The notes under the pieces: generated by a model
The model's database searches: none
Seen by the model: only the letters and a program-made list of their open reading frames with translations
What the model was told of the DNA's origin: nothing
Shown here: positions 26,637 to 30,846 of the stretch, in pieces
Layout: each line of letters begins with the position of its first letter
How positions within the stretch are numbered: position 1 is the first letter of the stretch
Program-made: the position numbers and the translations under genes
Source of the DNA: Thermoplasmata archaeon
Lineage (GTDB): Archaea > Thermoplasmatota > Thermoplasmata > Lutacidiplasmatales > UBA184
Length of the DNA: 41,010 bases
Reading direction: 5' to 3'
Assembly: GCA_021828085.1 (NCBI GenBank)
Contig: JAKATE010000002.1
Coordinates: 1 to 41,010, forward strand

Positions 26637-28984
26637 GGTCGGGCCGCGGGGAGAGGGCGCGGGTAGAAGCCCGCCTGCCAGCGGGGATAGAGACGCTCGA
26701 GGTCGAGCTCGGCCAGGCGGCGATCCCCCTCGGTCCAAAGCCCTCCCGCCTCCTCGACCCGCCCGATCCGGCGGAAGGGGAGCCCGCGGAGGACCCCGCG
26801 TAGCGCCTCCTCGTGGTCGGGGCGGACCTCCACCACCCATCGCGGACCCCCTTCCGCGAAGAGCTTCACCCAGCTCGGGATCCCTTCGCCACTGACCTGC
26901 TCCAGGTCGACGGAGAAGCCGAGCTTCCCCCCGAACGCCATCTCCACCAGCGTCTGGGAGAGCCCTCCCTCGGAGACGTCGTGCACCGCTTCGACGAGCC
27001 GCTCCTCGGAGGCTCGGAGGAGCCCCTCTCCGCAAGCCGGGAACGTCGCCCCGGGGAAGGCCGCGAAGCCTCCCCCCGGTCCGCCGAACCTCCTCTGGTA
27101 GCTCGAGCCGGTGAGCCCCCGCACCTCCGGCCCGAGGAGATAGAGGGCGTTCCCCGAACTCTTGAGGTCGCTACTCATCATCCGGGAGATGTCGGGAACC
27201 ACCCCTACCGTCAGGACGACGGGGGTGGGGGGGATGCTCGCACCGAGCCCTCCGTTGTAGAAGCTCACGTTCCCGGAGGGGACGCTGATCCCGAGAGAGG
27301 CACACGCACGGGCGATCCCCGCCACCCCCCGGTCGAAGTCCCCCAGGACCGTGGGGTCGTTGGGATTGCCGAAATTGAGGCAGTCCGTCAGCGAGTCCGG
27401 ACGGGCCCCCACGGCGTAGAGATTGGCGGCCGCCTCCTCCACGGAGGCGGAGCCGCCCCGCTCGGCGTCATAGGCACAGAGGAATGGCTGGCTCCCCACG
27501 GCCAGGGCGATCCCGAGGGCCTTGTTCGCGGAGACCTGGAGCACGGCCGCGTCGGCGTGGGTGGGGTGGTCCGGTCGGCCGGTGAGGGGCTTCCCTACGG
27601 TCCGCCCCTGGACCTCGTGGTCGTAGAGGCGCACGACGCCTTCCCGGCTCCAGCCGTTCTCGCTCAGGAGGAGCTCTTCGAGCGTCGCAGAGAGGTCGGA
27701 GGGAGCCGGCGGGAGGGGGTCCGGCGCACGGGGGGACGGGGGGGCCATGTCGAGCCGGGGAGGGGGGGGCTCCAGCCGGAAGGAGAGCGGGAGGTCGCCG
27801 AGCCTCTTGCCGCGGTAGAAGATCCGTTCCCGGTCCCCCTCGGTGACGGTCCCCACCACCGCCAGGGGGACCTCCCATCGCTTGAAGATGGCGCGAAGCC
27901 GAGGGAGGTTCGGAGGTTCCACGGCGAGGATCATCCTCTCCTGGCTCTCGGAGACCCAGATCTCCCAGGGCGCGAGCCCCGTCTCCCGGAGCGGCACACG
28001 CTCCAGATGGATCTCGGAGCCGAAGCCCCCGGCGTGCACGAGCTCCCCGGAAGCGCTGGAGAGCCCCCCTCCCCCGAGGTCCTTCATCCCGGCGATGAGC
28101 TTCTCGTCGGCCGCCTCGAGGCAGGCGTGGATGAGCGGTTCCTTCAGGATGGGGTTTCCCAACTGGACGGCCCCGCGCGACTCTTCCTCGCTCTTCGAGG
28201 AAAGCTCACGCGAGGCGAAGGCGACCCCGCCGATGCCATCGCGCCCGGTCAGGCCCCCGACGAGGACCAGATGCTGCCCCGCCCGGGACGCCCGGTTGGG
28301 CAGGAGACGGGAGCGCGGGAGGAGGCCGACGCAGGCGACGTTCACCAGCGGGTTCACGCGGTAGGCGCTGTCGAAGGTGAGGCTGCCCGCCACCGTGGGG
28401 ACCCCTACGCGGTTGCCGTAGTCGCGGATGCCCGCGACGACGTTCTGGAAGAGGTAGCGCGAGGGCTTGATGCCCGGGAGGGGCCGGGCCCGCCCGGGAT
28501 CGAGCGGGCCGAAGAAGAGCGGGTCGGCGAGGGCCACCGGCTTCCCTCCCATGGCGAGGACGTCACGCAGGATCCCCCCGATCCCGGTGGCGGCCCCCCC
28601 GTACGGTTCGATGGCGCTGGGGTGGTTGTGCGACTCGATCCTAAGGGCGTAGGCCCACTCCTCGTCGAGCGCGACGACCCCGGCATCGCCGCGGGCGAGC
28701 ACCCGGGGAGGGACCGGGAGGGGGCCGAAGTGACGGCTCAGGATCGGGCGCGACGACTTGTAGGAGCAGTGCTCGCTCCAGGACTGGGCGATCCCCGCGA
28801 GCTCGAGATCGCTGGGATCTCGCCCCTCGGCCCGGAAGTGTTCGGAGAGGGCCGCGAGCTCCTCGCCCGAGAATCCCAGGGAGCGCTCCTGGCTGAAGCG
28901 CGAGAGCTCCTCGGGGGAGAGGGAGCGGAAGCCCCCCGGCCGGGTCCGGCGGGTGCGGGGGACGGTGCTAGCGCCCCGAGCCAT
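26633..28984 (-). CDS. purL: Phosphoribosylformylglycinamidine synthase subunit PurL
   Basis: WSEHCSYKSS, ESHNHPS, DLGGGGL, SESQERM, DCLNFGNP, GNVSFYN and HDVSEGG. Confidence 0.97.
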   Translation of the reverse strand: MARGASTVPRTRRTRPGGFRSLSPEELSRFSQERSLGFSGEELAALSEHFRAEGRDPSDLELAGIAQSWSEHCSYKSSRPILSRHFGPLPVPPRVLARGDAGVVALDEEWAYALRIESHNHPSAIEPYGGAATGIGGILRDVLAMGGKPVALADPLFFGPLDPGRARPLPGIKPSRYLFQNVVAGIRDYGNRVGVPTVAGSLTFDSAYRVNPLVNVACVGLLPRSRLLPNRASRAGQHLVLVGGLTGRDGIGGVAFASRELSSKSEEESRGAVQLGNPILKEPLIHACLEAADEKLIAGMKDLGGGGLSSASGELVHAGGFGSEIHLERVPLRETGLAPWEIWVSESQERMILAVEPPNLPRLRAIFKRWEVPLAVVGTVTEGDRERIFYRGKRLGDLPLSFRLEPPPPRLDMAPPSPRAPDPLPPAPSDLSATLEELLLSENGWSREGVVRLYDHEVQGRTVGKPLTGRPDHPTHADAAVLQVSANKALGIALAVGSQPFLCAYDAERGGSASVEEAAANLYAVGARPDSLTDCLNFGNPNDPTVLGDFDRGVAGIARACASLGISVPSGNVSFYNGGLGASIPPTPVVLTVGVVPDISRMMSSDLKSSGNALYLLGPEVRGLTGSSYQRRFGGPGGGFAAFPGATFPACGEGLLRASEERLVEAVHDVSEGGLSQTLVEMAFGGKLGFSVDLEQVSGEGIPSWVKLFAEGGPRWVVEVRPDHEEALRGVLRGLPFRRIGRVEEAGGLWTEGDRRLAELDLERLYPRWQAGFYPRPLPAARP

Positions 28985-29264
28985 GCGCGCGCGGCCCCTT
29001 CCGCGGGCTTCCGATCGTCACCTGGTGGATCACGGGGTTCGCGAGGAGCTGCTCCACGGCCCGCTCGGCCTGCCGCCGGGCCTCCTGGGGAGTGAGGCCG
29101 GAATAGCGCAGGGTGTACCCCTTGGAGATCCCCACGCCCACGAGCCCACGGACCTTAAGGAGCCGGAGCGCCTTGAGCACCTCTCCGGCCTCGGCGTCGA
29201 CGACCCCCGGCTTCAACCTCACTCGGACCTCAAGGGAGAGGACGGGGGCTTCGCTTCGGACCAA
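28968..29264 (-). CDS. purS: FGAM synthase subunit PurS
   Basis: VRLKPGVVDAEA and LLANPVI. TTG start at 29264 with a GGAGG SD and TTTTAAA at 29298-29304. Confidence 0.9.
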   Translation of the reverse strand: MVRSEAPVLSLEVRVRLKPGVVDAEAGEVLKALRLLKVRGLVGVGISKGYTLRYSGLTPQEARRQAERAVEQLLANPVIHQVTIGSPRKGPRAHGSGR

Positions 29265-29297
29265 GGGCCTCCTGGGGGCGTCGGCACGAGGGAGGGG

Positions 29298-29339
29298 TTT
29301 AAAAGGGCGGAGCACGGAGATTTGGCAAAAGATTTAATA
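29298..29339. promoter_or_regulatory. Divergent promoter pair: TTTTAAA (minus, purS-purL) and TTTAATA with AAAAG BRE-like element (plus)
   Basis: AT-rich island between divergent genes. Confidence 0.65.
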
Positions 29340-29382
29340 GTGACCCTGGTTGGCTCGCCCGCCTCCGGGGGGGTCCCTGACG

Positions 29383-29556
29383 GTGGAAGAACTCATTCTG
29401 AGCGTCGAATTCCTGCGTTCCCGGGAGAAGGTCACGGCCCGGGTGGTCAGCGAGGCCGGCGGGGTCCGGGAGTACAGCTCCTCCCGCTCGGCGGACGTGA
29501 TCGAGCAGGTCGTCGACGATCTCCGGGAAGAGTTCGAGTCCGCGCCGCCGAGCTAG
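29383..29556 (+). CDS. Small acidic hypothetical protein (start GTG 29383 or TTG 29350)
   Basis: EELILSVEFLRS...VIEQVVDDLREEFES with typical codon usage, downstream of a TATA box. Confidence 0.7.
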   Translation: MEELILSVEFLRSREKVTARVVSEAGGVREYSSSRSADVIEQVVDDLREEFESAPPS

Positions 29557-29592
29557 GCCGTACCCGGGACGACCGGCCAAGATCGAAGTGCC

Positions 29593-29937
29593 ATGGGGAG
29601 GACGAGCGGGGGGAACCCGCCAGTGAGCGCCGCTGTGGAAGGGGCCTTCACGAAGGTTTGGGGAGAGGATGCCGTGGTGGCGCTCATCGCCCTCAAGGTG
29701 GAGACGGCAGAGGCCGACCACGTGGCCAGCGAGACCAGCAAGTTCTCCGAGGTCGAGGACGTCTTCCTGGTCACCGGGGACACCGACATCTTTCTCAAGG
29801 TCCGCTTCCCGCACTACGGGGAGCTCAAGGACTTCGTGCTCCACCGGCTCCCCGAGGTGAAGGGGATCCGGGAGAGCAAGACGCTCCTCGTCGTCACCGC
29901 CTACAAGGAGGCCGGCGAGCGCCGGGGGACCCCGTGA
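29593..29937 (+). CDS. Stand-alone Lrp/AsnC ligand-binding (RAM) domain protein
   Basis: VEDVFLVTGDTDIFLKV...GIRESKTLLV. No HTH domain. Confidence 0.88.
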   Translation: MGRTSGGNPPVSAAVEGAFTKVWGEDAVVALIALKVETAEADHVASETSKFSEVEDVFLVTGDTDIFLKVRFPHYGELKDFVLHRLPEVKGIRESKTLLVVTAYKEAGERRGTP

Positions 29938-30254
29938 GCAGCCCGAGCGCCTCCGGGGAGAGGGAGGGCGCGCTGGAGGCCTCCTTCGCCGGCCTTCCCC
30001 CGCTCGTGGAGAGCGCGCTTCACCGCGTCGCGCTCCTGCTCCATCAGCTCACCGAGGACGCCTCGCTCCCGCGGAACATCCGTCGCGGCGCGCAGGGGGC
30101 CCTCACCGAGCTGACGCGTCGGGGCGTGGCGGTGGACATGAAGGTCGCCGGCACCGTGGGGCTCCTCGACGAGCTCGCCAATGACGTGAACCTCCCCCAG
30201 CACGGGCGGACGGCCATCTGGGGGATCATCAGCCAGCTGGAGAGCCTGCGGTGA
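29934..30254 (+). CDS. UPF0147 family protein
   Basis: DASLPRNIRR, LDELANDVNLPQHGRTAIWGIISQLE. GTGA overlap with the preceding gene. Confidence 0.88.
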   Translation: MSSPSASGEREGALEASFAGLPPLVESALHRVALLLHQLTEDASLPRNIRRGAQGALTELTRRGVAVDMKVAGTVGLLDELANDVNLPQHGRTAIWGIISQLESLR

Positions 30255-30310
30255 GCGGACTCCCTATGCTCCGGGCCCCCCGCGGGCACGGAGGATCCCC
30301 CTGTTCCCAT

Positions 30311-30456
30311 GGGCCCGTAGCTCAGGCCGGTAGGTCGGAGGAGCGATCCTCCGGCCCGGTGAAGAGCACCCGGCTTTTAACCGGATGGTCCGGGGTTCGA
30401 ATGGCCGCAAGCCTCCCGAGGGGGAGCGAGGCGGCCCGAAGCTCCCCGCGGGCCCG
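30311..30456 (+). tRNA. tRNA-Lys(UUU) with two non-canonical introns (about 30333-30361 in the D-loop; 30402-30442 at 59/60 in the T-loop)
   Basis: Acceptor stem GGGCCCG/CGGGCCC with G73, D stem GCTC/GAGC, anticodon loop CTTTTAA (TTT at 30376-30378), T stem CGGGG/CCCCG with TTCGAA|T. CCA is not encoded. Confidence 0.93.
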
Positions 30457-30489: not shown

Positions 30490-30846
30490 GTGAGCCCCGC
30501 GAAGAGCCCCCCCGCGCGGCGTCGCGCGGCGAAGCCCAAGGCGGCCCCTCCGGAGCCGGCCAAGCCCTCCGGCCCCACCGCGCGGCACCAGCTGGTGCCG
30601 GCCCACGAGCTCCTGAGCGCCGAGGAGGGGGCCCGGGTGCTCGCCGACCTGGGGGTCCCGGTCGAGCGGCTCCCCAAGATCCTCCTCGACGATGCCGGTC
30701 TTCGCACCGATCCGAAGTTCTCCGAGCACGTGGAGAAGGACGGGCTCACGGGCCTCGTCGGCCGCCTCGTGCGCATCCATCGTCCCAGCCCTACCGCCGG
30801 CAGCTCGGTGGCCTACCGGGTCATCGTGGCCAGCGCGGAGGAATGA
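30490..30846 (+). CDS. rpoH: DNA-directed RNA polymerase subunit H (Rpo5)
   Basis: HQLVPAHELLS, LPKI and IHRPSPTAGSSVAYRVIV. Start moved to GTG 30490 because the longer ORF overlaps the tRNA. Confidence 0.92.
   Translation: MSPAKSPPARRRAAKPKAAPPEPAKPSGPTARHQLVPAHELLSAEEGARVLADLGVPVERLPKILLDDAGLRTDPKFSEHVEKDGLTGLVGRLVRIHRPSPTAGSSVAYRVIVASAEE

What the first reader, a model, noticed from the sequence alone, without database searches (positions are those of the whole stretch)
30311..30456. tRNA-Lys(UUU) split by two non-canonical introns in a Thermoplasmata-like archaeon
Seen: removing two inserts restores a 76-nt cloverleaf. Intron 2 (30402-30442, 41 nt, position 59/60) forms a strict bulge-helix-bulge. 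It has outer helix CGGGG/CCCCG, central helix TTCG/CGAA, 3-nt bulges AAT and GCT, and inner helix GGCCGC/GCGGCC; cutting at AA|T and GC|T rebuilds the TTCGAAT loop. There is no intron at the canonical 37/38 site. Known: multi-intron tRNAs with non-canonical sites are characteristic of Thermoproteales and some DPANN, while Thermoplasma-type genomes mostly have single canonical introns. Inference: this lineage may carry many cryptic intron-split tRNAs that standard tools miss.
Basis: partly seen in the sequence, partly recalled or inferred. Interest (0 to 1): 0.85.

Follow-up and report, generated by a model that had tools for sequence, protein, structure and literature searches.

The report
Two-intron lysine tRNA gene, conserved
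This is a real lysine tRNA gene interrupted by two short archaeal introns in unusual places, a layout shared by a large group of Thermoplasmata archaea that also hide similar introns in many other tRNA genes.

Summary
Window 30311-30456 (+) is a 146-nt pre-tRNA-Lys(UUU). ARAGORN and Rfam find nothing there. Removing two inserts in silico gives a full tRNA-Lys(ttt) cloverleaf.

Intron 2 (30402-30442, 41 nt, position 59/60) is a strict bulge-helix-bulge, exactly as described. Intron 1 lies in the D-loop. Intron-less relatives place it at 20/21 (30332-30362, 31 nt). The mature tRNA is therefore 74 nt, not 76, and this motif is relaxed.

Both introns are conserved with compensatory changes in 122 distinct relatives' genes. 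The D-loop intron occurs in 135 of 401 genomes of the class. Some relatives lack one intron exactly at the predicted junction.

The genome holds no other tRNA-Lys(UUU). It holds at least 11 more tRNAs with 59/60 T-loop introns and one more with a D-loop intron (a reversed-genome control gave 0). Its splicing endonuclease is a two-unit, alpha'2-like protein without the crenarchaeal loop insert.

The mechanism is of a known kind. What is barely described is the lineage-wide pattern in Thermoplasmata and Methanomassiliicoccales. No RNA evidence of splicing was obtained. tRNAscan-SE in archaeal mode probably already finds these genes.

The parts
30311..30331 (+). Exon 1: acceptor 5' strand, U8-A9, D-stem 5' strand and D-loop up to nt 20 (21 nt).
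   Evidence: Sequence. ARAGORN accepts the product after the cut (21,52). The boundary comes from comparison with intron-less relatives.
30332..30362 (+). Intron 1 (31 nt, D-loop 20/21), a relaxed BHB (BHL / HBh'-like). The 4-bp helix is nt16-18 GCCG with CGGU. The 5' bulge is G19-U20-A. The inner helix is about 10 bp and capped by GCGA. The 3' splice site GA|A21 lies in a 2x3 internal loop next to the D-stem. An alternative register (30333-30361, 29 nt) is not excluded.
   Evidence: Fold, helix statistics on 122 distinct relatives, intron-less D-loops in L152, L154 and L155.
30363..30401 (+). Exon 2 (39 nt): A21, D-stem 3' strand, anticodon arm (anticodon TTT at 30376-30378), variable loop, T-stem 5' strand and T-loop nt 54-59. 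Positions 27 and 43 form a C.A mismatch.
   Evidence: Sequence, ARAGORN.
30402..30442 (+). Intron 2 (41 nt, T-loop 59/60), a strict hBHBh'. The T-stem is the outer helix. The central helix is UUCG/CGAA. The bulges are AA|U and GC|U. The inner helix is GGCCGC/GCGGCC.
   Evidence: Sequence, fold. The central helix has 4 of 4 bp in 96 of 107 relatives' introns. Natural intron-less allele L015.
30443..30456 (+). Exon 3 (14 nt): U60, T-stem 3' strand, acceptor 3' strand and discriminator G73. No CCA is encoded.
   Evidence: Sequence, ARAGORN.
30490..30846 (+). rpoH (RNA polymerase subunit H, Rpb5 C-terminal domain). It is the conserved downstream neighbour of this tRNA.
   Evidence: Pfam PF01191, E = 3.7e-15. 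A homologous ORF follows the tRNA in all 30 relatives' loci examined.

Best explanation
This is the genome's only tRNA-Lys(UUU) gene. It is transcribed as a 146-nt precursor with three exons (21, 39 and 14 nt) and two protein-spliced archaeal introns.

Intron 2 (41 nt, T-loop 59/60) folds with the T-stem and T-loop into a strict bulge-helix-bulge. Geometrically this mirrors a canonical 37/38 intron, moved from the anticodon arm to the T-arm.

Intron 1 (31 nt, D-loop 20/21) forms a 4-bp helix with D-loop nt 16-18. It has a clean 5' bulge and a long inner hairpin. Its 3' splice site sits in an internal loop next to the D-stem, which makes it a relaxed, BHL-like motif.

The genome's two-unit (alpha'2-like) splicing endonuclease would cut after the second base of each bulge. 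RtcB would then join the exons into a 74-nt tRNA, and CCA would be added afterwards.

Shown here: the sequence anatomy, restoration of the cloverleaf, conservation with covariation, natural intron-less alleles, and the presence of EndA and RtcB genes. Inferred: transcription, cleavage at these exact bonds and ligation.

The same T-loop intron type interrupts at least 11 other tRNA genes of this genome. The two-intron Lys(UUU) layout is shared by many Thermoplasmata families.
For: 1. ARAGORN calls tRNA-Lys(ttt) only after both inserts are removed.

2. The minimum-energy fold of the precursor is a cloverleaf with two BHB-like arms, z = -3.54.

3. Relatives:
- 38 of 41 relatives' genomes match, including 24 of 24 in the same family.
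- Both inserts are present upstream of rpoH in same-family and same-order loci, including AT-rich ones.
- 149 loci gave 122 distinct two-insert-grammar genes. Of these, 107 carry intron 2, and 96 of those 107 have a perfect 4-bp central helix.

4. Covariation:
- The nt17a pair is paired in 100% of 122 sequences against 55% in shuffles (AT 80, CG 37, TG 5).
- Intron-1 inner pair 3 is paired in 91% against 47%, with 5 pair types.
- Intron-2 inner pairs 2-4 are paired in 75-82% against 43-55%.
- Sliding the partner by 1-2 positions drops pairing to 0.34-0.62.

5. Natural alleles:
- L015 lacks intron 2 and reads TTCGAAT in its T-loop, while its genus-mates keep the intron.
- L152, L154 and L155 lack intron 1 and have the 9-nt D-loop AGCTAGGTA. 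That is exactly the product of 20/21 excision in intron-bearing relatives.

6. The D-loop-insert Lys(UUU) pattern occurs in 135 of 401 genomes of the class (97 of 259 high-quality genomes). The backwards control pattern gave 0 in every genome row.

7. There is no second UUU-anticodon tRNA-like locus in the genome: 13 hairpins were screened and only C252 has a T-arm. The only other Lys tRNA is CUU.

8. EndA is a 374-aa protein with two PF02778+PF01974 units. RtcB is present at E = 8.6e-170.

9. Eleven more tRNAs have 30-34-nt 59/60 introns, against 0 in the reversed genome. tRNA-His with its intron matches full-length in 23 of 24 same-family genomes.
Against: No RNA evidence was obtained. No listed RNA run holds the stretch. 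The single metatranscriptome contig that was laid comes from a relative and still carries the start of intron 1.

Intron 1 is not a strict BHB:
- A14-G15 are unpaired between the D-stem and the central helix.
- The nt16 pair forms in only 70% of 122 relatives.
- An alternative 29-nt register is equally foldable.

Published assays found that an alpha'2 enzyme (A. fulgidus) cut a relaxed D-loop HBh' intron poorly (PMC5829648, passages read). Another group states that homodimeric enzymes can cut BHL-like motifs (PMC8707768, passages read).

The window's gene has a C27.A43 mismatch, where relatives have U-A or C-G.

AAA codons are rare here: 0 AAA against 53 AAG in rpoB, and 2 AAA against 4 AAG in the upstream ORF as listed. 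Selection on this tRNA may therefore be weaker than usual.

The assembly is 92.8% complete with 6.2% contamination, so a second gene could be unassembled.
Confidence: 0.9

Rival explanations
1. Decaying pseudogene: a former tRNA-Lys gene disrupted by two insertions and no longer processed into a working tRNA.
For: ARAGORN and Rfam do not recognise it. It has a C27.A43 mismatch. AAA codons are rare in the two ORFs counted. No RNA evidence was found.
Against: The layout is kept in 135 of 401 class genomes. Compensatory changes preserve both BHB motifs. The exons stay near-invariant while the intron sequences diverge. No other tRNA-Lys(UUU) exists in the assembly.
Confidence: 0.03
2. The inserts are retained in the mature RNA as extra arms of an expanded tRNA and are not spliced out.
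For: No splicing data exist. The inserts form stable hairpins.
Against: The inserts sit between G19 and A21 and between nt 59 and 60. By established tRNA structure (recalled), the D-loop and T-loop must dock against each other there. The conserved features are precisely the 3-nt bulges and the 4-bp spacer that the endonuclease reads. Close relatives have exact intron-less versions.
Confidence: 0.03
3. Same gene and same splicing, but intron 1 is the 29-nt version (30333-30361, cuts UA|G and UG|A). This gives a 76-nt tRNA with an 11-nt D-loop.
For: The inner four pairs (nt17, 17a, 18, 19) are all formed in 115 of 122 relatives. The nt16-18 register is complete in 85 of 122. ARAGORN accepts the 76-nt product.
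Against: Intron-less orthologues have the 9-nt D-loop that only the 20/21 register reproduces. The 29-nt register leaves the 3' bulge without a closing outer helix.
Confidence: 0.2

Closest known systems
ARMAN-2 (Ca. Micrarchaeum acidiphilum) pre-tRNA-Cys(GCA) with a 59/60 intron and pre-tRNA-Pro(GGG) with 53/54 and 59/60 introns (PMC3239211, passages read)
   Same: Same T-loop position 59/60. BHB motif built on the T-stem. More than one intron per gene. A large share of the genome's tRNA genes is disrupted.
   Different: ARMAN-2 uses a three-unit epsilon2 endonuclease with a specific loop. This genome has a two-unit protein with no such insert visible. The lineage is Thermoplasmata, not DPANN.
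Methanopyrus kandleri pre-tRNA-Glu(UUC): relaxed HBh' intron in the D-loop at 20b/21 plus a canonical intron (PMC5829648, passages read)
   Same: A euryarchaeal tRNA with two introns, one of them a relaxed motif in the D-loop just before A21. The endonuclease lacks the crenarchaeal specific loop. The fused M. kandleri EndA (5x89) is the best solved match to this genome's EndA, E = 1.3e-38.
   Different: The second intron here is at 59/60, not 37/38. The M. kandleri enzyme is an (alpha-beta)2 heterotetramer, whereas here a single gene encodes both units. The layout here is conserved across many families.
Multi-intron tRNAs of Thermoproteales (as summarised in PMC4033280 and PMC8450103, passages read)
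   Same: Several BHB introns per tRNA at non-canonical sites. A high share of interrupted genes.
   Different: Those lineages have (alpha-beta)2 endonucleases with the crenarchaeal loop. Intron positions are far more scattered there. In this genome nearly all non-canonical introns found sit at one site, 59/60.
Canonical 37/38 BHB introns of Euryarchaeota
   Same: Identical motif geometry. Intron 2 repeats the arrangement on a 5-bp stem and a 7-nt loop: 4 loop bases pair with the intron, then a 3-nt bulge follows, with cleavage after its second base.
   Different: Built on the T-arm instead of the anticodon arm. [quoted passage not shown]

Membership tests
Archaeal protein-spliced tRNA intron with strict hBHBh' motif | Two 3-nt bulges on opposite strands, separated by exactly 4 bp. 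| tested here: met
   Intron 2 meets it: AAU and GCU bulges around UUCG/CGAA. The central helix is 4 of 4 bp in 96 of 107 relatives. Intron 1 does not meet it strictly (see the BHL row).
Archaeal protein-spliced tRNA intron with strict hBHBh' motif | Flanking outer (exon) and inner (intron) helices of at least 2 bp. | tested here: met
   Intron 2 has a 5-bp T-stem outside and a 6-bp GGCCGC/GCGGCC helix inside.
Archaeal protein-spliced tRNA intron with strict hBHBh' motif | Excision at the bulges restores a canonical cloverleaf. | tested here: met
   ARAGORN calls tRNA-Lys(ttt) of 74 or 76 nt after in-silico excision, and nothing before it.
Archaeal protein-spliced tRNA intron with strict hBHBh' motif | Splicing endonuclease and RtcB ligase encoded in the genome. 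| tested here: met
   EndA on C53 with two PF01974 matches. RtcB on C213, E = 8.6e-170.
Archaeal protein-spliced tRNA intron with strict hBHBh' motif | Spliced product and excised (circular) intron observed in RNA. | not testable with these tools
   No RNA run holding the locus was listed. The one contig laid was from a relative and unspliced at intron 1.
Relaxed BHB (BHL / HBh') intron | One intact 3-nt bulge plus a 4-bp helix, with the other splice site in a loop instead of a closed bulge. | tested here: met
   In intron 1 the 5' bulge is closed by the 4-bp helix and a roughly 10-bp inner helix. The 3' site lies in a 2x3 internal loop (A14-G15 opposite G-A-A21).
Lineages with broad-specificity endonuclease ((alpha-beta)2 with crenarchaeal loop, or epsilon2) | Separate alpha and beta subunits, or a three-unit protein, with a lysine-bearing loop insert in the catalytic unit. 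| tested here: not met
   There is one 374-aa gene with two units. It aligns along its whole length with A. fulgidus alpha'2. Around the 'GYG...LSL' stretch there is no insert, whereas the A. pernix alpha subunit has about 9 extra residues there relative to the query's first unit. The position of the loop in A. pernix is recalled, not read.

The most novel reading that the evidence does not exclude
A class-level euryarchaeal clade (Thermoplasmata, including Methanomassiliicoccales and Lutacidiplasmatales-like orders) has about a quarter of its tRNA genes interrupted at T-loop 59/60. Its tRNA-Lys(UUU) carries two, and in some members three, non-canonical introns. Yet its endonuclease is a two-unit, alpha'2-like protein without the known specificity loops. 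If so, this enzyme lineage evolved tolerance for relaxed motifs on its own: the D-loop BHL, and central helices with an A57.G mismatch. That would break the accepted link between endonuclease architecture and intron repertoire. The uniform 30-34-nt T-loop introns, half of them with a G[AG]ACC loop motif, would then have spread between tRNA genes as one intron family.
Probability: 0.3. Interest if true: 0.65.

Novelty: new member of a known kind. Interest (0 to 1): 0.5.

Why it matters
Reviews state that euryarchaeal tRNA genes carry at most one intron, at 37/38, and that alpha4 and alpha'2 endonucleases restrict them to that (PMC4090602, PMC4033280; passages read). Here a whole group of Thermoplasmata families keeps a two-intron tRNA-Lys(UUU), and this genome has about a dozen T-loop-intron tRNAs, alongside a two-unit endonuclease. 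This gives a natural, testable substrate-enzyme pair for asking what really sets endonuclease specificity.

There is also a practical point. tRNA counts for these MAGs made with ARAGORN, Rfam or bacterial-mode tools will wrongly report His, Asn, Lys(UUU), Gly(UCC), Ser, Gln and Ala tRNAs as missing. That affects genome-quality standards that count tRNAs.

Tried and rejected
Direct detection failed. ARAGORN on the window found 0 genes. Rfam at gathering threshold found 0, and at E <= 10 found only three chance matches, none of them tRNA. RF00005 on the whole genome gave 34 matches and missed this locus.

ARAGORN with introns allowed, run on the genome, gave 77 calls. Many have implausible introns of hundreds to thousands of bases. 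I used only the intron-less and short-intron calls.

The RpoH alignment could not seed search for related loci. I used a DNA pattern instead.

The first parsing script had an off-by-one error and parsed 0 of 149 loci; this was fixed. Ten of the 149 loci did not fit the two-insert grammar, because of a third insert or a truncated locus, and were left out of the 122-sequence statistics.

In the wider scan, many multi-cut 'hits' with inserts of 80-140 nt were treated as noise. C209 (the ARAGORN 96-nt 'Gly') and C224 ('Val') do not fold as tRNAs and were dropped. Upstream-extended versions of intact tRNAs (C133, C152 Leu, C12) were dropped.

The 29-nt register for intron 1 was considered and ranked second.

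RNA evidence: no RNA holder was listed. Three metatranscriptome runs of one study were laid. Only one 184-nt contig, from a relative, touched the stretch, and it showed no spliced joint.

The class tally is a lower bound. G033 (family f6, scored 0 of 46) has both inserts but a different anticodon stem, so the pattern missed it.

Literature: no paper held 'Methanomassiliicoccus' together with 'tRNA introns'. Searches found no description of non-canonical tRNA introns in Thermoplasmata. Marck & Grosjean 2003 and Sugahara 2007 are not held.

Full report
**What is there.** Window 30311-30456 (+) reads as the parts of a tRNA-Lys(UUU):
- acceptor stem GGGCCCG/CGGGCCC
- D-stem GCTC/GAGC
- an intact anticodon loop CTTTTAA
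- T-stem CGGGG/CCCCG
- discriminator G

Two inserts interrupt it. ARAGORN finds no tRNA in the window. Rfam finds nothing at gathering threshold and only chance matches at E <= 10. I removed the T-loop insert 30402-30442 and a D-loop insert in a script, by coordinates. ARAGORN then called tRNA-Lys(ttt) in all five 29-nt boundary variants (76 nt) and for a 31-nt cut (74 nt). The unconstrained fold of the 146 nt is a cloverleaf whose D-arm and T-arm are extended by bulged helices: -86.5 kcal/mol, z = -3.54, and 0 of 200 shuffles fold as well.

**Intron 2.** The arrangement copies a canonical 37/38 intron, moved to the T-arm. The 5-bp T-stem is the outer helix. T-loop nt 54-57 (UUCG) pair with CGAA at the intron's 3' end. 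The bulges AA|U and GC|U sit on opposite strands, 4 bp apart. A 6-bp helix lies inside. Cutting after the second bulge base restores TTCGAAT.

**Intron 1.** The fold shows a 5-bp helix (GCCGG/CCGGU) between a UAG bulge and a GAA stretch, so two registers are possible.
- In 122 distinct relatives' genes, the inner four pairs are complete in 115. The nt16-18 register is complete in 85.
- The deciding evidence is comparative. Three class-level relatives without this insert (L152, L154, L155) have the D-arm GCTC-AGCTAGGTA-GAGC. Intron-bearing relatives with the same flanks give exactly that product only if cut at 20/21.
- I therefore place intron 1 at 30332-30362 (31 nt). The mature tRNA is then 74 nt.
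- The motif is relaxed. The 5' bulge is well closed. The 3' site lies in a 2x3 internal loop beside the D-stem. This is the BHL / HBh' type.

**Is it more than chance?**
- The locus, always upstream of rpoH, matches in 38 of 41 relatives' genomes and in 24 of 24 of the same family.
- AT-rich members of the same order keep both inserts, with quite different intron sequences.
Most are titled Thermoplasmata, Methanomassiliicoccales, Methanomassiliicoccus sp. or Thermoplasmatota. Single records are titled Ca. Lutacidiplasmatales, Ca. Sysuiplasmataceae, Ca. Saliniplasma and Ca. Natronoplasma. A few are DPANN.
- Within the class the pattern hit 135 of 401 genomes (97 of 259 high-quality genomes). 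The backwards control pattern hit none. These counts include three unpublished genomes (G120, G315, G228). They are a lower bound, because G033 carries both inserts but escaped the pattern.
- Of the 122 distinct genes, 107 also have the 59/60 intron, and 96 of those have a perfect central helix.
- Pairing at fixed offsets from the exon borders far exceeds shuffles and slid controls, with many pair types. The nt17a pair is 100% paired against 55% in shuffles. Intron-1 inner pair 3 is 91% against 47%. Intron-2 inner pairs 2-4 are 75-82% against 43-55%.
- Exon sequence stays almost invariant while intron sequence drifts. This is the signature of spliced introns, not of decay.
- L015 lacks intron 2 and reads TTCGAAT, while four genus-mates keep the intron.

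**Is the gene needed?**
- The only other Lys tRNA found is CUU.
- A screen for UUU anticodon hairpins followed by a T-arm found only this locus.
- AAA is rare: 0 AAA against 53 AAG in rpoB, and 2 AAA against 4 AAG in the upstream ORF as listed.
- The assembly is 92.8% complete with 6.2% contamination.
- The window's copy has a C27.A43 mismatch, where relatives have U-A or C-G.

**The rest of the genome.** I anchored a scan on acceptor-stem and T-stem pairing plus a 59/60 BHB. It found 11 further tRNAs with one 30-34-nt T-loop intron:
- Ser-GCU
- Ser-GGA (two copies)
- Asp-GUC
- Ala-GGC (two copies)
- Gln-CUG
- Arg-UCU
- Asn-GUU
- Gly-UCC
- His-GUG

The same scan on the reversed genome gave 138 candidates and 0 tRNAs. 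ARAGORN or Rfam mis-called four of the eleven as short or partial tRNAs and missed the others. Their folds show the expected T-arm extension, with z from -1.96 to -4.26. Eight of the 11 have a UUCAAA T-loop and a central helix of 3 bp plus an A57.G mismatch, which is another relaxation. tRNA-Pro(UGG) on C229 has a 30-nt D-loop intron with a 4-bp GUAG/CUAC central helix. tRNA-His with its intron matches full-length in 23 of 24 same-family genomes. A relative's tRNA-Lys(CUU) also has a T-loop intron (L157).

**The enzymes.**
- EndA is one 374-aa ORF with two N-terminal-plus-catalytic units, that is an alpha'2-like architecture.
- Its best solved matches are the fused M. kandleri enzyme (5x89, 1.3e-38), the A. 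pernix alpha subunit, A. fulgidus alpha'2 (full length, 2.5e-22) and ARMAN-2 epsilon2 (1.7e-21).
- The T. acidophilum enzyme matches only over its last ~70 residues, 205-274 of 289 (1.2e-12).
- No insert like the crenarchaeal specific loop is visible in these alignments.
- RtcB is present.

**Comparison with what is known.**
- Position 59/60 and D-loop introns are known from ARMAN-2 (PMC3239211) and from M. kandleri tRNA-Glu 20b/21 (PMC5829648). Multi-intron tRNAs are known from Thermoproteales.
- Reviews list no Thermoplasmata among multi-intron lineages (PMC4033280). They say euryarchaeal tRNA genes have one canonical intron (PMC4090602).
- Whether alpha'2 enzymes cut relaxed motifs is disputed: PMC5829648 and PMC4033280 say no, PMC8707768 says yes.
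- The comparative-genomics paper on Methanomassiliicoccales does not mention tRNA introns (PMC4153887).
- A paper on Lutacidiplasmatales used tRNAscan-SE 2 -A and reported tRNAs for all 20 amino acids without mentioning introns (PMC9287336). That tool probably already finds these genes.
- For all these papers I read search listings and matched passages only. Supplements were closed.

**Verdict.** This is a genuine two-intron tRNA-Lys(UUU) gene of a known mechanistic kind. It lies in a lineage where the pattern is conserved, widespread and, as far as my searches reach, undescribed. Splicing itself remains inferred.

Noticed in passing
G000 contigs: L160-L170 (C27:3410-3525, C99:17694-17800, C140:1954-2056, C151:493-610, C152:11667-11773, C181:1342-1447, C211:3624-3728, C217:160-276, C223:8379-8484, C236:1717-1819, C249:7312-7416): Eleven further tRNA genes of this genome carry a 30-34-nt intron at T-loop 59/60. 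Eight of them have a central helix with an A57.G mismatch. ARAGORN and Rfam miss or truncate them.
   Followed up: yes
L171 (G000:C229:8992-9096): tRNA-Pro(UGG) has a 30-nt D-loop intron near nt 17/17a. Its 4-bp central helix GUAG/CUAC uses part of the D-stem. The site differs from the Lys D-loop intron.
   Followed up: partly
L050, L059, L063, L064, L075, L084, L126 (also L130, L147 from other lineages): Some Methanomassiliicoccales- or Thermoplasmata-titled MAGs have a third insert in tRNA-Lys(UUU), just 3' of the anticodon loop inside the anticodon stem. They would be three-intron genes.
   Followed up: no
T-loop introns of the 12 genes listed: Six of the 12 T-loop introns have G[AG]ACC in the apical loop at intron positions 9-13. 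The shuffle mean is 1.6 and P = 0.0045, but the motif was chosen after looking. It could mark a shared origin or a protein-binding site.
   Followed up: partly
L157 (G037:C8:8270-8610): In a class-level relative, tRNA-Lys(CUU) has a 21-nt T-loop 59/60 intron. In this genome the Lys(CUU) gene is intron-less.
   Followed up: no
G000 whole assembly: Several tRNAs occur twice with slightly different sequence: Cys-GCA, Glu-CUC, Thr-CGU, Trp-CCA, Ser-GGA and Ala-GGC. This fits the 6.2% contamination estimate, or two strains binned together.
   Followed up: no
window 28953-30254 (+): The long ORF upstream of the tRNA matches UPF0147 only in its last 80 residues. The real gene is probably much shorter, and the rest is a GC-rich spurious open frame.
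   Followed up: no
window 30201-30341, run X2: One metatranscriptome contig from a related organism runs from the upstream gene into the tRNA and continues into that relative's unspliced D-loop intron. It could be precursor RNA or DNA carry-over.
   Followed up: no
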